From positions 1 to 21,434 of the IMG/VR virus record IMGVR_UViG_2563366996_000005: a DNA stretch of 21,434 nucleotides; one strand, given 5' to 3'. Below, piece after piece: positions 761 through 9,538 of the stretch. This DNA is from a virus. Lineage: Duplodnaviria; Heunggongvirae; Uroviricota; Caudoviricetes. The position numbers and the translations under genes are program-made. Position 1 is the stretch's first letter. Each line of letters begins with the position of its first letter. Below the pieces are notes generated by a model. The model saw only the letters and a list, made by a program, of their open reading frames with translations, was not told where the DNA came from and searched no databases.

Positions 761-1129
761 TCAGGCGGCTTTGATAGTCATATCATCTGAATCAAATATT
801 CCTGATGTATCGATATCGGTAATTCTTATTCCTTCGCTACCATCCATTGGAGGCCATCCTTCCTGACCATTTCCATCATTCCAGTCGAACTCACACACAA
901 CACCATATGCATTTAAGTCGCTTGAAATTGCTATAAGCAGAGCATGTTGCGCCAGCATGATTAATACAGCATTTAATACAGAGCCGTGTTTATTGAGTCG
1001 GTATTCAGAGTCTGACCAGAAATTATTAATCTGGTGAAGTTTTTCCTCTGTCATTACGTCATGGTCGATTTCAATTTCTATTGATGCTTTCCAGTCGTAA
1101 TCAATGATGTATTTTTTGATGTTTGACAT
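761..1129 (-). CDS. ea10: Ea10 (lambda early protein of the pL operon), 122 aa
   Basis: Track ORF; translation matches recalled lambda Ea10, and it sits next to cIII as in lambda. Confidence 0.8.
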   Translation of the reverse strand: MSNIKKYIIDYDWKASIEIEIDHDVMTEEKLHQINNFWSDSEYRLNKHGSVLNAVLIMLAQHALLIAISSDLNAYGVVCEFDWNDGNGQEGWPPMDGSEGIRITDIDTSGIFDSDDMTIKAA

Positions 1130-1389: not shown

Positions 1390-1971
1390 ATGAACAACTC
1401 ATGGTGGCAGGAACTAATGCATTTTTTCCTGCAAGGAATGACACTTAAACAGTTGATTCATATGCTAATCATCCTGATCATATTGATTATTGTTATGCCT
1501 GTAAGCGTAAAAGAATGGATAAACCTGCATAATCCAGAAATCCTTCCTCATTACTGGATGTATTACATCCTGTTGTTTTGCGTTAGCTATGTGCTTAACG
1601 GCGTTGTTAATTCCGCTTATCACGCTGTGACTGTAAGAATTGAGATATTCGCTGCTCAGAAGCGCAAATCTAAAGAAGAGAAATACGTGCAAGATTTGTT
1701 TGATTCGTTAACTCTTGGAGAAAGAGCGTATTTGGCATTCGCTGTAGCCGCTAATAACCAGCTAAAGACAGAAAAGGGAAGCCCTGAAGCAATCTCATTG
1801 CTCGAAAAAGGGCTTCTTATTCGGGTACCTTCTGCTACTGGATATCCTGAAATCGACCGTTTTGTTATCCCGGAACGCTATAGAAATGAGTGCTACATTA
1901 GGTTTGCTGGGAAGAAAGACAGTCTTATGGATGAACTTATCGCTCAGGATAAGCATGGCAAAAACAAGTAA
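1390..1971 (+). CDS. sieB: SieB-like superinfection exclusion protein, 193 aa, hydrophobic N-terminal segments
   Basis: Track ORF on the opposite strand to the pL genes, between ea10 and N where lambda and P22 carry sieB. Size is right (~192 aa) and the N-terminal region is very hydrophobic (LIHMLIILIILIIVMPV, YYILLFCVSYVLNGVV). Identity to lambda SieB is recalled, not verified. Confidence 0.6.
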   Translation: MNNSWWQELMHFFLQGMTLKQLIHMLIILIILIIVMPVSVKEWINLHNPEILPHYWMYYILLFCVSYVLNGVVNSAYHAVTVRIEIFAAQKRKSKEEKYVQDLFDSLTLGERAYLAFAVAANNQLKTEKGSPEAISLLEKGLLIRVPSATGYPEIDRFVIPERYRNECYIRFAGKKDSLMDELIAQDKHGKNK

Positions 1972-1987
1972 TTAGCAAATGAATTTA

Positions 1988-2296
1988 TCATCTCGCCGTC
2001 AGTTGTTTTGATTTCCGGTAGCCTGCCGCGTAAATAGCTACGTTTGGCAGGCAAACACTTCCACTGCATTCATCTACTTTCTTGCAGCGAAGGCTTCCGA
2101 GTGATATTGCTTTTTCAGAAAGGCTTAACCGCTTTCTCGGGTCTTCCTGAACAGGTTCCTCACTGTCTGTGCCGAAGATCGAATCGATGATGTTGCAGAT
2201 GGAATCACGCTCGATGGCCAGCTTTCTGCGCCGCTCATGACGGCGAGTTTTGGCATTTCCTGCAAATGTTGATTTTCCGTACACGATTACCGTCAT
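1988..2296 (-). CDS. N: N antiterminator, P22 type (gene 24-like), 102 aa
   Basis: Contains the P22 N arginine-rich motif GNAKTRRHERRRKLAIER. The likely start is the internal Met of track ORF 1988..2380 (MTVIVYGK..., ATG at 2294-2296) with a GAGGA RBS. It lies directly downstream of a P22-type boxB. Confidence 0.85.
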   Translation of the reverse strand: MTVIVYGKSTFAGNAKTRRHERRRKLAIERDSICNIIDSIFGTDSEEPVQEDPRKRLSLSEKAISLGSLRCKKVDECSGSVCLPNVAIYAAGYRKSKQLTAR

Positions 2297-2414
2297 GATG
2301 TTTTCCTCATGTGAAATGGCTTTGGTGGTGATGCGCCAGATGCTGATCTTCTGGTTGCTGTCGTTACTGCTGCAATTCACATCACCCCAAACCCATCTCG
2401 TTTGGTATCTGTTC

Positions 2415-2448
2415 GCGCTTTGTCAGCGCATCATCGAAGTTAAAGAGC
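2415..2448 (-). promoter_or_regulatory. nutL: P22-type boxB (2415-2429) plus boxA-like element (2439-2448)
   Basis: Minus-strand sequence GCTCTTTAAC...GCGCTGACAAAGCGC. The 15-nt GCGCUGACAAAGCGC hairpin is the P22 boxB-left sequence as I recall it from the N-peptide/boxB literature. Confidence 0.75.
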
Positions 2449-2704
2449 CTGCCAATCTGTTCCGTTTGGCTGCCAGCGTCCTGCTGATGGCGATTATAAT
2501 GAACCAATAGTTCGATATTATCAAGAACTATAAGTACGAATTGTTTGTGGTTCATTAACTTAATGAGATATGTTTTTGATATGTAAAGGAATTTATTTTT
2601 GTAAAGATTGAAGATTGGTCAGTAGGAGAGAAAGAATTGTTTGCTGGCGTGTTAGTTCGTGGGTTAGCACATGTGCGGATGTTAAATAAGGTAGACGATC
2701 GTGA

Positions 2705-2732
2705 GGAAAAGAAAAACCGGCGCTGAGGCCGG
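2705..2732 (-). terminator. Intrinsic terminator just downstream of the 299-aa gene (minus strand)
   Basis: Minus-strand hairpin CCGGC-CTCAGC-GCCGG (2717-2732) followed by TTTTTCTTTT, 7 nt past the stop codon at 2739-2741. Confidence 0.55.
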
Positions 2733-2738
2733 GTATAA

Positions 2739-3638
2739 TTATTTGATTATTTCTTTTATAAAGACTTCTTTCGGTTGGTATTTTTTATCTGATGATTTGA
2801 GCTGGTACGTTATTGTTATATCAGCACGTACAGAAAATTTACCTGCAAAATCTGATGGGTTTACGTTGGGGCCAAGAACCATATTTACTCTTCGATCTAT
2901 TAATCCAGGGATAACAGCAGCCCAACCTTTCTCTGGATTGTCGAGGTCTAATGCACGGATTTCAACATCAACATCAAAATGATCCTGAGTATATGACTCT
3001 GGTGTGAAGACAACTTCAGTTGGGGCTTTTTTAATGGTTTCAGCGGGAATGGTCACTGTACCACCCCCTGTACCTATGACCATCGTAGATCCTTCGTCTG
3101 CCCTAGCTGGGGCAAGCGTCTTAATGGAACTTTTGGCAAGAGTCTTCTTATTGGTTACCGTGCTTTCTATGATTGCTTGAAGACGGTCAGGTGAAATATT
3201 AGCCTCACCGGCACCAATATTGATGATTGTATTGTTATTTGCTTCAAAGTGGGAGGTGTTGCTTGGAGCCATAGCCTTAGTTGCTAGAACTAAGCCATAT
3301 CCAACCAGACCAATAACAACAGCACCAACGAGAGCGTTTCTCATTTTCCCATTTCCGATCTTTGCATGAGCGCCAGCAAGAAACTTGTCCATTTCTTCTT
3401 GGCTACCAAAGAGGAGTTTAATAACAATATCTTCATAAAGGCTTCCTGCTTCTAATCGCGCAACATGCACCGATATATCAAGGATATTAGCCCCTGTCAG
3501 TTCCTGCAAAACACCTTCTGATTGTTTTGCGATGGCCTCCCACCCTTGAAGGGAGGTAATCACATCTTTGATGCTTACAGGTTCTTTAGTTGAATAATAT
3601 ATGTTTTCGGTAAAGGTTAAAGATAATTCTTGGGACAT
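2739..3638 (-). CDS. Hypothetical 299-aa single-pass membrane protein in the rexAB-equivalent slot (between oL/pL and the repressor, same strand as the repressor)
   Basis: Track ORF. One strongly hydrophobic helix near residues 100-125 (MRNALVGAVVIGLVGYGLVLATKAMA) separates a ~100-aa N-terminal domain from a ~175-aa C-terminal domain. I recognise no family. AT-rich compared with the flanking lambda-like genes. Confidence 0.8.
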   Translation of the reverse strand: MSQELSLTFTENIYYSTKEPVSIKDVITSLQGWEAIAKQSEGVLQELTGANILDISVHVARLEAGSLYEDIVIKLLFGSQEEMDKFLAGAHAKIGNGKMRNALVGAVVIGLVGYGLVLATKAMAPSNTSHFEANNNTIINIGAGEANISPDRLQAIIESTVTNKKTLAKSSIKTLAPARADEGSTMVIGTGGGTVTIPAETIKKAPTEVVFTPESYTQDHFDVDVEIRALDLDNPEKGWAAVIPGLIDRRVNMVLGPNVNPSDFAGKFSVRADITITYQLKSSDKKYQPKEVFIKEIIK

Positions 3639-3767
3639 CCGAGCCCTCGCTGTTTCTTTCGATTTGCTGTGTTAAGCTAATATTTTAATATCCATGTTTC
3701 TGTTTGCTTGCAGTGTGTTTCTCACCACCATCCAAACGTACTGGTTACTAGCTATGTGATGATGAAG

Positions 3768-4475
3768 TCATGAACTTTTCAGCCATTCCCTGGCCTCGAT
3801 GTCATCTAGGTGGCGAGATTGCTTCAGAATACCAGCTACATACTCCACCTTTGCTACTTGATGATAAGGCAACGTTATTGGCCTGTGGTCTTGGTTGATG
3901 CTTGTAAATTGGTATTCTCCGTCTCTGTCATAGCCAAGAACCTTGATCATGTTGTGCCCTTCAATGGTTCTGACAAACACCTCATCACCTGGGAATACTT
4001 TGGTGTTAGGCTCAATGAGTACATATTCTCCTGATTTTATTCTGGGCCACATGCTGTCTCCTTTTACACGAAGACCAAAGGCATCTGGATCATCGCTATA
4101 AATCTTGAGCCACCCATCGCGCTCTTCGGTCATCTCGATGGCACCATCAACACCAAGAATTGCCTCACCAACCACGCGCACTAACCCTTTTTTTAATTTG
4201 CCAACAATTGAAAAAGTATCTTCATCATTCGCTCCATTTAACGAAGTGCCGTGCTGAAGCCAAACAACATCAACGTTTAGAAATTTCGCAAGCGCATTCA
4301 TTTTTTCCTGGCGTGGTAAAGACTCAGCATTAAACCATTTGCTAACGCCTTTGGACGAAAGAGAAAGGGCACGGGCTATGGCCATTCCCCTACCATGTTC
4401 ATCAAGACCAGCTTCTTTACAGGCTTGCGCTAGCCGCTGGGCGAATTCTTTGCGCACTTTTTCATTCTGAACCAT
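3768..4475 (-). CDS. cI: CI-like prophage repressor: N-terminal HTH domain plus C-terminal LexA/S24-type autocleavage domain, 235 aa
   Basis: Track ORF. The C-terminal domain carries the S24 serine motif GDSMWP and a downstream Lys. It is divergent from cro across a short operator region. Not lambda, 434 or P22 repressor by recall. Confidence 0.85.
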   Translation of the reverse strand: MVQNEKVRKEFAQRLAQACKEAGLDEHGRGMAIARALSLSSKGVSKWFNAESLPRQEKMNALAKFLNVDVVWLQHGTSLNGANDEDTFSIVGKLKKGLVRVVGEAILGVDGAIEMTEERDGWLKIYSDDPDAFGLRVKGDSMWPRIKSGEYVLIEPNTKVFPGDEVFVRTIEGHNMIKVLGYDRDGEYQFTSINQDHRPITLPYHQVAKVEYVAGILKQSRHLDDIEAREWLKSS

Positions 4476-4553
4476 GAGTACGATACTAAAGCACTTGCAA
4501 AAACTTTCAGTTCAACCATAATGCGTACTGAAAGTACGAAAAAGGACATTCCT
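4476..4553. promoter_or_regulatory. Right operator / pRM-pR region between repressor and cro
   Basis: A 78-bp divergent intergenic region containing the perfect palindrome CGTACTgaaAGTACG (about 4523-4537) and a second AGTACGA copy next to the repressor start. One more AGTACGA copy lies in the presumed oL region near 2543. Confidence 0.5.
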
Positions 4554-7364: not shown

Positions 7365-8761
7365 TTAAATTGCATCTGCAAACTCTGGGGTTTTTCGCTC
7401 AGGTATAATTGATGAGTTGCTGTTGTCACTTTTTTTATTTTCATGATTACGAATAGCCAATGACTCATTAAAGTCTTTTGCGACTGCTGTCTCAATAAAT
7501 TCAATTTCTGAATCAGAGTGTTTTTTAACAGCTTCTTTGATCTCATCCAGAGTAACATAGAAAAACTCTTTTCTACGATTTACAAGATTGACTCTCTTTT
7601 TATCGAAGACATCATGTAGTTTTTTTTCTAATGATGGAGCGTCCTCCGAATAAATCATGGCATGTACATCAAAAATAAAAGGAACAGATGCATCACCGAG
7701 CTCATTTACACGGTCTTGCGGATCAAGACGTCGTGTCATGCCTATTTTATAAACATTCTCCCCAAAAGAACCTATGTTCGAAATAATATAAACATGACCT
7801 TGTTTGGTTTGTTGTGCCATGGATAATGCTCTTTGATGCTTTGATTCAGCCTGCGACAAACTCTGTTCTAGTTCGGCAATGCGATTTTCGAGGCGCTGCT
7901 TCATGTCACCAGTAACTTTTTCCATTTCCTTTCTTGCAGCTTCAATTGCTTTTTTATAACGGCGCTCTTCTGCCTCTGCGTCTTGCATGGCCTTTTCTAT
8001 TTCTCGTTGTGCACGCTCCTCCTCTCTCATTTGTGCCCTTATTTCTGCCTGTTCTTCTTTTTCTTTCTGTTTTTGCTCACGATATTCATGGGTAAGCCAC
8101 AATTCCTCAAGTTTTTTATTGAGGTATTTAGTGTTTATATATATGTGATTTTGCTCGTTTAGTTTATTTATGGCCTCAAATGCCTTTGTGATGCGTTCTT
8201 CCATTTTAGTGATGTTTTTCCACGTGCAATTGCTAATTGCAGCATCACATTCATTATTAAATGCTCTAGTAGTTAGCCTGATATTTCTGTCTGTCATTTT
8301 TTTACCCTCTGCTCGAGAGCCTTCAACAGTCCATTGGGTTGTACAATATACTGCGCCAGAGTGGGTTTTATCCCGCAGCATTAATTTCTGTTCATCCCTG
8401 ATGGATTTTATTTTGTTTTTAAATTGCTCTGAATCTTCAAAATTAAAATGAGGTTCGTAAAATCCTAGTTCGGCTAGCTCAACATCTTCTGAATAAATAG
8501 AAATTTGCCTTACTAGTTTATCATATATTTCTTTCTTCTCTTTATAAGTTCTTCTTAGCTCTTGGATTTGTTTATTGATACCATCCATTTTTTCAATGGT
8601 GTTTGTTAGTTCATTATTGGCATTTTCTTTTACTTTTAGGGATTCTTCTTTTATTATGGAGCATTCTTGCTCTGTTTTCTCAATAAGCTTCTTACATTCT
8701 TCTTCTACATTAAAATAATCTGCAAAGCGAGATTTGTATTCTTCATTTTTTTGATTGCTAT
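7365..8761 (-). pseudogene. 3' portion of an IS1-split gene: coiled-coil region plus C-terminal T5orf172/GIY-YIG-like domain (longest ATG-initiated remnant ORF 7365..8588, 407 aa)
   Basis: Track ORF 7365..8588. Its frame stays open upstream for another 57 sense codons with no start codon until it enters IS1 at 8762. The C-terminal motif GHVYIISNIGSFGENVYKIGMTRRLDPQDRVNELG...PFIFDVHAMIY...LEKKLHDVF...RKEFFYV is T5orf172/GIY-YIG-like by recall. The central region is a long charged coiled coil. Confidence 0.75.
8753..8761. repeat. IS1 target-site duplication, left copy (GATTGCTAT)
   Basis: This 9-bp sequence directly abuts the IS1 end at 8762 and is identical to 9530-9538. Confidence 0.9.
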
Positions 8762-8776
8762 GGTAATGACTCCAAC

Positions 8777-9280
8777 TTATTGATAGTGTTTTATGTTCAG
8801 ATAATGCCCGATGACTTTGTCATGCAGCTCCACCGATTTTGAGAACGACAGCGACTTCCGTCCCAGCCGTGCCAGGTGCTGCCTCAGATTCAGGTTATGC
8901 CGCTCAATTCGCTGCGTATATCGCTTGCTGATTACGTGCAGCTTTCCCTTCAGGCGGGATTCATACAGCGGCCAGCCATCCGTCATCCATATCACCACGT
9001 CAAAGGGTGACAGCAGGCTCATAAGACGCCCCAGCGTCGCCATAGTGCGTTCACCGAATACGTGCGCAACAACCGTCTTCCGGAGCCTGTCATACGCGTA
9101 AAACAGCCAGCGCTGGCGCGATTTAGCCCCGACGTATCCCCACTGTTCGTCCATTTCCGCGCAGACGATGACGTCACTGCCCGGCTGTATGCGCGAGGTT
9201 ACCGACTGCGGCCTGAGTTTTTTAAATGGCGGAAAATCGTGTTGAGGCCAACGCCCATAATGCGGGCGGTTGCCCGGCAT
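8777..9280 (-). CDS. insB: IS1 InsB (transposase catalytic part, made as InsAB' by a -1 frameshift)
   Basis: Track ORF; translation matches recalled IS1 InsB. Confidence 0.9.
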
Positions 9281-9474
9281 CCAACGCCATTCATGGCCAT
9301 ATCAATGATTTTCTGGTGCGTACCGGGTTGAGAAGCGGTGTAAGTGAACTGCAGTTGCCATGTTTTACGGCAGTGAGAGCAGAGATAGCGCTGATGTCCG
9401 GCGGTGCTTTTGCCGTTACGCACCACCCCGTCAGTAGCTGAACAGGAGGGACAGCTGATAGAAACAGAAGCCAC
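9199..9474 (-). CDS. insA: IS1 InsA (transposition repressor / N-terminal part of the transposase)
   Basis: Track ORF; translation [40 protein letters not shown]... matches recalled IS1 InsA. Confidence 0.9.
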
Positions 9475-9529
9475 TGGAGCACCTCAAAAACACCATCATA
9501 CACTAAATCAGTAAGTTGGCAGCATCACC

Positions 9530-9538
9530 GATTGCTAT
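9530..9538. repeat. IS1 target-site duplication, right copy (GATTGCTAT)
   Basis: Identical 9-mer to 8753-8761, directly abutting the other IS1 end. Confidence 0.9.

What the first reader, a model, noticed from the sequence alone, without database searches (positions are those of the whole stretch)
2739..3638. Uncharacterised 299-aa single-pass membrane protein in the rexAB slot beside the repressor
The gene lies between oL/pL and the cI-like repressor, on the repressor strand, with its own intrinsic terminator. This is the position lambda uses for rexA-rexB, a classic lysogen-expressed exclusion locus. Instead of Rex it encodes one protein of unknown family: a ~100-aa N-terminal domain, a single strongly hydrophobic helix, and a ~175-aa C-terminal domain. 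The gene is AT-rich relative to the flanking lambda-like genes, suggesting horizontal acquisition. Location and architecture make it a candidate prophage-encoded superinfection exclusion or abortive infection factor.
Basis: partly seen in the sequence, partly recalled or inferred. Interest (0 to 1): 0.85.

Follow-up and report, generated by a model that had tools for sequence, protein, structure and literature searches.

The report
Uncharacterised membrane protein replacing rexAB
A lambda-like prophage carries, exactly where phage lambda keeps its rexAB exclusion genes, one gene for a membrane protein of a widespread but unstudied family; it is probably made in lysogens and is a good untested candidate for blocking other phages.

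Summary
A 299-aa ORF (2739..3638, minus strand) lies between a cI-type repressor and pL/N. It has about 100 aa N-terminal, one hydrophobic helix (101-121) and about 175 aa C-terminal.

The "own terminator" is really lambda's immunity-operon terminator, the one that follows rexB (39 nt, 95% identical). So the gene sits in the rexAB position to the nucleotide. The unit shared between prophages with unrelated repressors is leader + ORF + terminator with no promoter, which points to co-transcription with cI (inferred).

The protein belongs to PHROG 4506, function unknown. It has no Pfam, NCBIfam, PADLOC or PDB match and no convincing fold match. The family has at least 662 clusters at 50% identity. 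dN/dS is 0.02-0.10. The positive-inside rule predicts N-in/C-out in 204 of 232 members.

A cI-type regulator lies upstream on the same strand in 29 of 42 loci and never downstream. No other partner is conserved. With a near-identical cI, the same slot carries RexAB, a PD-T4-6-like kinase or PDC-M63.

Best reading: a lysogen-expressed, single-protein inner-membrane exclusion or defence factor. The mechanism is only inferred. "AT-rich" is weak: 41% GC against 45% for cI.

The parts
2739..3638 (-). Target gene: 299-aa predicted bitopic inner-membrane protein. N-terminal beta-alpha-beta-beta-alpha domain at residues 1-95, TM helix 101-121, conserved ANNNTIINIGAGE motif 132-145, helical segment 147-180, beta-rich C-terminal domain 185-297.
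   Evidence: ORF. PHROG 4506, E 1e-170, full length. Hydropathy. AF2 pLDDT 82.8. Family alignments. dN/dS 0.02-0.10.
3639..3700 (-). Conserved leader of the cassette, with RBS GAGGG at 3648..3644. Homology between prophages with unrelated repressors starts here, 36-62 nt upstream of the ATG. No promoter-like site.
2705..2732 (-). Intrinsic terminator (hairpin 2732..2717 plus T-run). It is homologous to the terminator directly after lambda rexB, i.e. the immunity-operon terminator.
   Evidence: A 39-nt match at 95% identity to lambda (window 2696-2734). The same hairpin follows rexB in lambda and closes the slot in O157:H7 and 30EVA2 prophages.
3768..4475 (-). cI-type repressor (HTH_3 + Peptidase_S24), immediately upstream on the same strand. 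Presumed source of transcription for the target.
   Evidence: No terminator or promoter match in the 129-nt gap.
2496..2537 (-). pL-like promoter (TTGATA-17-CATTAT, 2524..2496) overlapping an operator-like site (2525-2537). This is the oL/pL boundary of the slot.
   Evidence: consensus matches only.
4469..4537 (.). oR region between cI and cro, with operator-like sites at 4469-4481 and 4525-4537.
1988..2380 (-). N antiterminator. RefSeq annotates the shorter 102-aa form, equal to window 1988..2296. Marks the far side of the cI-to-N slot.
   Evidence: PF25694, E 1e-40. Annotation.

Best explanation
The gene is the cargo of the prophage immunity operon (pRM/pRE -> cI -> this gene -> shared terminator), so it is made in lysogens together with the repressor. 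It encodes a single-pass inner-membrane protein with a cytoplasmic N-terminal domain of about 100 aa and a periplasmic C-terminal domain of about 175 aa. It needs no conserved partner protein. Most likely it is a superinfection-exclusion-type defence factor acting at the inner membrane. In that model its periplasmic and membrane parts interfere with the genome-entry step of incoming phages, through the tape-measure or ejection-protein conduit or the host inner-membrane entry proteins. This would be analogous to P22 SieA, HK97 gp15 or lactococcal Sie2009.

Shown: gene reality and strong constraint; slot identity; cassette boundaries; repressor linkage across lineages; hotspot cargo; absence of any known domain or fold.

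Inferred: transcription in lysogens; N-in/C-out topology; anti-phage function; the injection-block mechanism.
For: 1. Slot: the gene lies between cI and the terminator that follows rexB in lambda. The same terminator closes the slot in other prophages.
2. Cassette: the unit shared beside unrelated repressors (18-24% identity) is leader + ORF + terminator without a promoter. No terminator lies between cI and the gene.
3. Repressor linkage: a cI-family regulator is upstream on the same strand in 29 of 42 loci (immediately adjacent in 20) and downstream in none, across hosts with GC 0.39-0.64. Pfam finds S24 in 16 of 41 upstream neighbours and 0 of 41 downstream ones. No other neighbour is conserved.
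4. Other placements are classic moron slots: antisense in the Q-holin interval, after Rz, and in Mu-like phages.
5. Hotspot cargo: a 97%-identical cI is followed elsewhere by a PD-T4-6-like kinase plus PDC-S43, by PDC-M63A/B, or by an SDH protease. Lambda has RexAB. Owen et al. 2021 (PMC8585504) describe the cI-N interval as a mosaic hotspot and note that BstA shares this placement.
6. Topology: K/R counts are 3.2 on the N-flank against 1.1 on the C-flank, with N > C in 204 of 232 members. There is one conserved hydrophobic helix.
7. Real, constrained protein: dN/dS 0.02-0.10 in all domains; at least 662 clusters at 50% identity.
9. Inner-membrane proteins that block DNA entry are an established prophage strategy (PMC10883804).
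Against: No experiment or expression data were available, so the function rests on position and architecture.

The topology is only a positive-inside prediction.

Very strong purifying selection and the near-clonal E. coli allele (at least 99% identity in 150 genomes) are not the diversifying pattern often seen in proteins that contact fast-evolving phage parts. A conserved host partner would explain this.

Known Sie proteins are shorter and lack a 100-aa cytoplasmic domain, whose role the model leaves unexplained.

The family is absent from PADLOC. Only 2 of 132 distant members weakly hit candidate PDC-S42, and this was not reproduced in 10 other homologues.

The native occupant of this slot in lambda, RexAB, is an abortive-infection system, not an entry block.
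Confidence: 0.4

Rival explanations
1. Abortive-infection effector. The protein sits idle in the inner membrane of lysogens. The cytoplasmic N-domain or periplasmic C-domain senses an infecting phage, the TM helices then oligomerise, and the membrane is depolarised or permeabilised. The cell dies before progeny are made. One protein would combine the roles of RexA and RexB.
For: - Same slot as rexAB, and the same repressor-linked placement as the Abi protein BstA (PMC8585504).
- Two globular domains on opposite sides of one TM helix fit a sensor-plus-effector layout.
- The TM helix is rich in small-xxx-small packing motifs: 2.56 per helix against 2.07 in composition-matched shuffles, and 80% of members have at least two. 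G115 is about 87% conserved.
- Independent IS1 and IS5 insertions inactivate the gene in 2 of about 150 genomes. This is compatible with a cost, but is only anecdotal.
Against: - A single TM helix is a minimal pore former, and no similarity was found to known membrane effectors. RexB: hhalign probability 0.1%. Pycsar/CBASS TM effectors: only isolated weak hits.
- No self-immunity element or partner is evident.
- IS insertions are also seen in the neighbouring SNIPE gene, so they say little.
Confidence: 0.25
2. A lysogenic-conversion or prophage-maintenance function, not anti-phage defence. A lysogen-expressed envelope protein could alter host physiology (stress signalling, envelope homeostasis, colonisation). 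It could also tune the lysis-lysogeny switch or induction by relaying a periplasmic signal to the cytoplasm.
For: - Repressor-operon cargo need not be defensive, and the SDH protease cargo in the same slot has no defence match.
- Strong purifying selection with little diversification fits interaction with conserved host components.
- The bitopic layout resembles signalling or anti-sigma-type membrane proteins in outline only.
- No PADLOC hit.
Against: - The gene also occurs away from repressors, as a stand-alone cassette in other moron slots and in a primase island. This argues against a role wired into cI regulation.
- It is dispensable for carrying the prophage (IS-disrupted copies).
- Most characterised cargo in this slot is anti-phage.
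Confidence: 0.28
3. A lysis-associated or virion-associated phage protein, such as a lysis regulator, that merely happens to lie next to cI here.
For: - Several distant homologues lie next to lysis genes: before a lysozyme in cyanophage Lsp-JY19, after Q in PseuP_222, after Rz in L055, and in the Q-holin interval in L024, L028 and L036.
- One UniRef name for a homologue reads 'Baseplate protein J-like domain-containing'.
Against: - In most lineages the gene is in the immunity operon, which is transcribed in lysogens and not during lysis.
- In the Q-holin loci it is antisense to the late operon.
- No Pfam or PHROG structural or lysis family matches.
- Those positions are themselves known moron slots.
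Confidence: 0.05

Closest known systems
Lambda RexA/RexB (abortive-infection/exclusion system in the cI-rexA-rexB immunity operon)
   Same: Identical genomic position: downstream of cI on the same strand, and ended by the same terminator (39 nt, 95% identical). Presumably expressed in lysogens. A membrane component is involved.
   Different: One gene instead of two. No sequence or profile similarity to RexA or RexB (hhalign probability about 0.1%) and no PADLOC RexA/RexB hit. One TM helix, whereas RexB is a multi-pass membrane protein (from the literature). The function here is untested.
BstA (prophage BTP1; Owen et al. 2021, PMC8585504)
   Same: A single-gene cargo whose placement directly downstream of the prophage repressor is conserved across diverse Gram-negative bacteria. 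It has its own Rho-independent terminator.
   Different: BstA is not a membrane protein: it localises to sites of phage DNA replication, and it has a DNA self-immunity element (aba). The target is a predicted membrane protein of a different family. No direct sequence comparison was made; the target matches no PADLOC model at all.
Inner-membrane superinfection-exclusion proteins: P22 SieA, HK97 gp15, lactococcal Sie2009, S. thermophilus Ltp (PMC10883804)
   Same: Prophage-expressed, single-protein, membrane-located factors with no enzymatic domain. This is the mechanism proposed here: blocking DNA entry.
   Different: No homology. HK97 gp15 is 62 aa (hhalign probability 0.1%). SieA is about 162 aa with three predicted TM segments. 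PHROG families annotated as exclusion proteins do not match. The target is larger (299 aa), with folded domains on both sides of the membrane.
SNIPE / PD-lambda-1 (Saxton et al. 2026, PMC13190303)
   Same: A single-pass inner-membrane defence protein acting at genome injection. A homologue lies in the same prophage (7365..8588).
   Different: [quoted passage not shown] The target has no nuclease or any other recognisable domain.
PHROG 4506 / PADLOC candidate PDC-S42
   Same: PHROG 4506 is the family itself (E 1e-170, full length). Two of 132 distant members weakly match PDC-S42 (best E 5.9e-6).
   Different: PHROG 4506 carries no functional annotation. The PDC-S42 link is marginal: it was not seen for the window protein or for 10 other homologues, and no literature on it was found.

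Membership tests
PHROG 4506 (uncharacterised phage protein family) | Full-length match to the family profile | tested here: met
   E 1e-170, residues 1-299 against profile positions 1-300 of 300.
RexAB | Sequence or profile homology to RexA or RexB | tested here: not met
   hhalign of the family profile A5 against lambda RexA and RexB gives probability about 0.1%. No PADLOC RexA/RexB hit, while lambda RexA and RexB score E 9e-110 and 9e-61 as positive controls.
RexAB | Location in the immunity operon between cI and the operon terminator | tested here: met
RexAB | Two-component system (cytoplasmic sensor plus multi-pass membrane channel) | tested here: not met
   A single ORF with one hydrophobic helix, and no conserved partner gene in 42 loci.
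Prophage moron / immunity-operon cargo | A discrete cassette found in otherwise unrelated phage backgrounds, ending in a terminator | tested here: met
   Homology is confined to leader + ORF + terminator beside repressors only 18-24% identical. The gene also lies in the Q-holin and post-Rz slots.
Prophage moron / immunity-operon cargo | Expression in the lysogen | not testable with these tools
   Inferred only, from the absence of a terminator or promoter between cI and the gene and the shared terminator. No transcriptome was available.
Superinfection-exclusion proteins (SieA, SieB, HK97 gp15 families) | Homology to a described Sie family | tested here: not met
   No Pfam SieB hit and no PHROG family annotated as exclusion matches. 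HK97 gp15 gives hhalign probability 0.1%. P22 SieA was not compared directly.
Superinfection-exclusion proteins (functional class) | Inner-membrane localisation | tested here: inconclusive
   One conserved hydrophobic helix and a positive-inside bias (N > C in 204 of 232 members) predict a bitopic N-in/C-out protein. No experimental localisation.
Superinfection-exclusion proteins (functional class) | Blocks infection or DNA entry by other phages | not testable with these tools
   Requires plaque, adsorption and DNA-entry assays.
Known anti-phage defence systems (PADLOC v2.0.0) | Match to any known or candidate defence model | tested here: not met
   No hits for the window protein or for 10 divergent homologues. 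Only 2 of 132 distant members hit PDC-S42 weakly.

The most novel reading that the evidence does not exclude
The family is a new class of self-contained transmembrane anti-phage sensor-effector. A periplasmic beta-rich domain detects the incoming phage's injection machinery and signals through one oligomerising TM helix to a cytoplasmic ferredoxin-like domain, or the signal runs the other way. This would give outside-in sensing of infection at the moment of genome entry by a fold with no known relatives. It would be carried by temperate phages from Enterobacterales to Pseudomonas, Accumulibacter and cyanobacteria.
Probability: 0.12. Interest if true: 0.8.

Novelty: new variant of a known kind. 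Interest (0 to 1): 0.55.

Why it matters
The interval between cI and its terminator is among the most highly transcribed parts of a lambdoid prophage, and it is a recognised place for exclusion genes. This work turns an anonymous "hypothetical protein", present in about 3% of complete E. coli genomes, into a defined candidate. It is a single-gene, promoter-less cassette of a large family (at least 662 clusters at 50% identity). The family is strongly constrained, has no known fold, and is linked to repressors in phages of very different hosts. If it blocks phage infection, it adds a new protein family, and possibly a new mechanism, to prophage-encoded defence. It would also bear on phage-therapy host range in clinical E. 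coli. The conserved "cI - cargo - terminator" layout gives a simple rule for mining more cargo.

Tried and rejected
- Sequence searches for a known family: Pfam, NCBIfam, PADLOC and PHROGs on the protein and on 132 divergent members gave only PHROG 4506 (unknown function). The weak DUF1206 hit (E 0.007, below cutoff) overlaps the TM helix and is rejected as compositional.
- PDB by profile: nothing better than E 0.28.
- Homology to RexA, RexB and HK97 gp15: rejected.
- A conserved partner gene (two-gene system): rejected. Only the repressor recurs. The ECF-sigma-like Pfam hits in 2 downstream neighbours were not followed up.
- The PDC-S42 lead could not be localised or reproduced.
- Literature: the RefSeq accession WP_000076840 is absent from searchable full text and from the DefensePredictor supplements. 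Brenes & Laub 2025 (Cell Host Microbe) is not held, so I cannot exclude that this family was tested there.
- The 'AT-rich so horizontally acquired' argument carries little weight.

Full report

Yes. The window has an ATG-initiated ORF at 2739..3638 on the minus strand, encoding 299 aa. A GAGGG ribosome-binding site lies 5 nt upstream.

Hydropathy shows one strong hydrophobic segment at residues 101-121 (Kyte-Doolittle 2.24 over 19 residues). The next-best peak is about 1.0. This leaves about 100 aa before the helix and about 175 aa after it.

The gene lies between two landmarks:
- A cI-type repressor at 3768..4475 (-), with HTH_3 and Peptidase_S24 domains.
- An N antiterminator at 1988..2380 (-), matching PF25694 at E 1e-40.

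The rest of the region is lambdoid:
- cro, cII, O and P follow rightward, and sieB lies left of N.
- A pL-like promoter lies at 2524..2496.
- Three of the four GTACTNNNAGTAC-like sites in the whole window fall at 2525-2537, 4469-4481 and 4525-4537. These are the expected oL and oR positions. This is positional support only, since the total count is not above chance.
- A GC-rich hairpin with a T-run starts 6 nt after the stop codon (2732..2707).

The claim of AT-richness is weak. The gene is 41.2% GC, against 45.3% for cI, 42.1% for cro and 40.0% for sieB.

**2. What the slot is**

I compared the window with lambda's own N-rexB-rexA-cI region. The only DNA homology is a 39-nt stretch at 95% identity (window 2696-2734). 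It is the hairpin terminator directly after rexB. From my own knowledge, this is t_imm, the terminator of the cI-rexA-rexB transcripts.

The gene replaces rexAB precisely between cI and that terminator.

The exact hairpin also closes the slot in two other prophages:
- An O157:H7 prophage, immediately after its last cargo gene.
- The prophage of strain 30EVA2, immediately after its cargo gene.

Those prophages have a cI about 97% identical to the one here but different cargo:

| Prophage | Cargo in the cI-terminator slot | PADLOC result |
|---|---|---|
| O157:H7 | DUF3024, a hypothetical gene, a Ser/Thr kinase | PDC-S43; PD-T4-6/mad6-type kinase |
| PM7 | DUF6932 protein plus a 310-aa protein | PDC-M63A and PDC-M63B |
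| 30EVA2 | SDH-family Clp-fold protease | no match |
| lambda | RexA, RexB | RexA, RexB |

Three of the four alternative cargo sets are therefore known or candidate defence systems. This agrees with Owen et al. 2021 (PMC8585504). They describe the cI-N interval as a mosaic hotspot and note that BstA shares this repressor-linked placement.

**3. The cassette and its transcription**

The E. coli-type gene (94-97% protein identity) also occurs in loci L018-L021. The repressors called immediately upstream in L018 and L021 are only 18% and 24% identical to this cI.

In those loci, homology to the window is confined to about 3674-3700 down to 2704-2712. That span is a 36-62-nt leader with the RBS, the ORF and the terminator.

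No promoter-like site lies in the leader or in the 129-nt gap after cI. No terminator separates cI from the gene.

The simplest reading is read-through from the repressor promoters, meaning expression in lysogens. This step is inferred. No expression data were available.

**4. The family**

- The protein is a full-length member of PHROG 4506, function unknown (E 1e-170).
- It matches nothing in Pfam (only a sub-threshold DUF1206 hit over the TM helix), NCBIfam or PADLOC.
- It is 100% identical in 11 temperate coliphages of the 1H12/Lambda_ev group (Jouyvirus).
- It is present in 150 of 5,426 complete E. coli genomes, always at 99% identity or more, and always annotated as hypothetical.
- A word-indexed search found 56 clusters.
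- An exhaustive profile search found 662 clusters at 50% identity with E at or below 1e-3, and 286 at or below 1e-30. Nearly all are about 300 aa and match end to end.
- Hosts include Enterobacterales, Pseudomonas, Accumulibacter and a cyanophage.
- Conserved features are the TM helix, the juxtamembrane motif ANNNTIINIGAGE (132-145), and residues L30, G65, S66, P177, P206, A229, D231, D233, G238, W239 and R250.
- dN/dS is 0.02-0.10 in every domain, even where dS reaches about 0.7. This is a constrained, functional protein.

**5. Context across the family**

I examined 42 loci, grouped into 19 lineages at 70% identity.

- A cI-family regulator lies upstream on the same strand in 29 loci, immediately adjacent in 20. 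It never lies downstream.
- Pfam independently finds Peptidase_S24 in 16 and HTH_3 in 16 of 41 upstream neighbours, and in none of 41 downstream neighbours.
- The linkage holds in about 10 of the 19 lineages and across hosts with GC from 0.39 to 0.64. It includes Pseudomonas phage D14C, whose copy is only 24% identical.
- No other neighbour family is conserved, so the gene acts as a single-gene module.

Elsewhere the gene occupies other accessory positions:
- The Q-holin interval, antisense to the late genes.
- After the Rz spanin.
- Next to Dam methylase or Hypoth_Ymh genes.
- In Mu-like prophages.
- In a primase-bearing island.

Independent IS1 and IS5 insertions inside the gene in 2 of about 150 E. 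coli genomes show that it is dispensable for prophage carriage.

**6. Structure and topology**

AlphaFold2 with the family alignment gives a confident model (pLDDT 82.8, pTM 0.68):
- An N-terminal beta-alpha-beta-beta-alpha domain (5-94).
- A long helix (101-123).
- Short helices (125-179).
- A beta-rich C-terminal domain (185-297).

Fold searches find no meaningful relative:
- Foldseek against PDB gives no hit at or below E 1e-3.
- BFVD gives only another uncharacterised phage protein.
- Profile searches of PDB sequences are empty.

Across 232 members, K/R residues average 3.2 in the 15 residues before the helix against 1.1 after it. N exceeds C in 204 of 232. This predicts a cytoplasmic N-domain and a periplasmic C-domain. 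The TM helix is modestly enriched in small-xxx-small packing motifs. No catalytic signature was recognised.

**7. How it most likely works**

Shown: a real, constrained, single-gene cassette in the immunity-operon cargo slot. It is repressor-linked across distant phages and encodes a one-helix membrane protein of unknown fold.

Inferred, in three ranked readings:
1. **Entry block, about 0.4.** The protein is made in lysogens and acts as an exclusion or defence factor at the inner membrane. It would interfere with genome entry of incoming phages, as P22 SieA, HK97 gp15 and Sie2009 do. The reasons are that most of the protein is predicted to be periplasmic or in the membrane, it has no enzymatic domain and no partner, and strong conservation fits contact with a conserved host entry component.
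2. **Abi-type membrane effector, about 0.25.** One protein would combine the RexA and RexB roles. The slot, the two-sided domain layout and the packing-prone TM helix favour this.
3. **Non-defence lysogenic-conversion or switch-modulating role, about 0.28.** This cannot be excluded.

A lysis or virion role is unlikely (about 0.05).

**8. Comparison with what is known**

- The gene is in the RexAB position but is not a RexAB member (hhalign probability about 0.1% to both; one gene, one TM).
- It shares BstA's genomic logic. BstA, however, localises to sites of phage DNA replication rather than the membrane (PMC8585504), and no direct sequence comparison with it was made.
- It is not homologous to HK97 gp15 or to any PHROG or Pfam exclusion family.
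- Its predicted topology is opposite to SNIPE's (PMC13190303).
- Two of 132 distant members weakly match the PADLOC candidate PDC-S42. I could not reproduce or localise this.

**9. Novelty and limits**

The slot and the idea of repressor-linked exclusion cargo are known. The protein family, its architecture and its fold are uncharacterised. I found no paper mentioning the accession. It is not in the DefensePredictor supplements.

I rate it a new variant of a known kind. It is of moderate interest (0.55) as a well-delimited and easily testable candidate.

Noticed in passing
window 7365..8588 (-), with IS1 at about 8762..9530 (insB 8777..9280, insA 9199..9474): A homologue of the defence nuclease PD-lambda-1/SNIPE (DUF4041 + GIY-YIG; PADLOC E 8e-190) lies in the ren/nin region, and IS1 interrupts it. 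The reading frame stays open up to the IS1 end at about 8761, and the PADLOC match starts at profile position 99 of 491. So roughly the first 40 aa, presumably carrying the membrane anchor, are cut off. Saxton et al. 2026 report that SNIPE lacking its TM domain is toxic. The gene is intact in most of the 131 E. coli genomes that have it, and other copies carry IS5 or IS1 insertions.
   Followed up: partly
window 1390..1971 (+): A sieB superinfection-exclusion gene (PF14163, E 3e-25; PHROG 1301) lies left of N. This prophage therefore carries three candidate exclusion loci: sieB, the target gene and the disrupted SNIPE.
   Followed up: no
L003 (CP090319) 1840..3516 and L004 (OZ546993) 1840..3938: Independent IS1 and IS5 insertions split the target gene in two clinical E. 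coli genomes. This is natural knock-out material for comparison with intact lysogens.
   Followed up: partly
window 2696..2734; L059 1846-1861; L060 2786-2801; L064 (lambda) 909-924: The immunity-operon terminator hairpin CCGGCCTCAGCGCCGG is conserved exactly in lambdoid prophages whose cargo between cI and the terminator is completely different. It may serve as the recombination anchor for cargo exchange, and it is a handy search key for mining this slot.
   Followed up: partly
L060 (CP138419) 2833..3834: In a prophage with a 97%-identical cI, the same slot holds a 333-aa SDH-family Clp-fold serine protease with no PADLOC match. This is another uncharacterised candidate cargo.
   Followed up: no
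window 761..1129 (-): A DUF2528 protein (PF10800, E 2e-47; PHROG 646, unknown function) lies between the cIII/kil region and sieB. It is conserved in the related prophages and its function is unknown.
   Followed up: no
L051 and L057, genes immediately upstream of the homologue (for example L051 5123..5914): In one distant lineage the family member sits directly after a 263-aa Hypoth_Ymh (PF09509) protein and a 385-aa protein on the same strand. This may be a different multi-gene accessory cluster.
   Followed up: no
L058 (CP032515) 2427..3569: In strain 118UI the prophage carrying the target is integrated next to icd, with its integrase adjacent to the icd gene. This is a classic lambdoid attachment site.
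   Followed up: no
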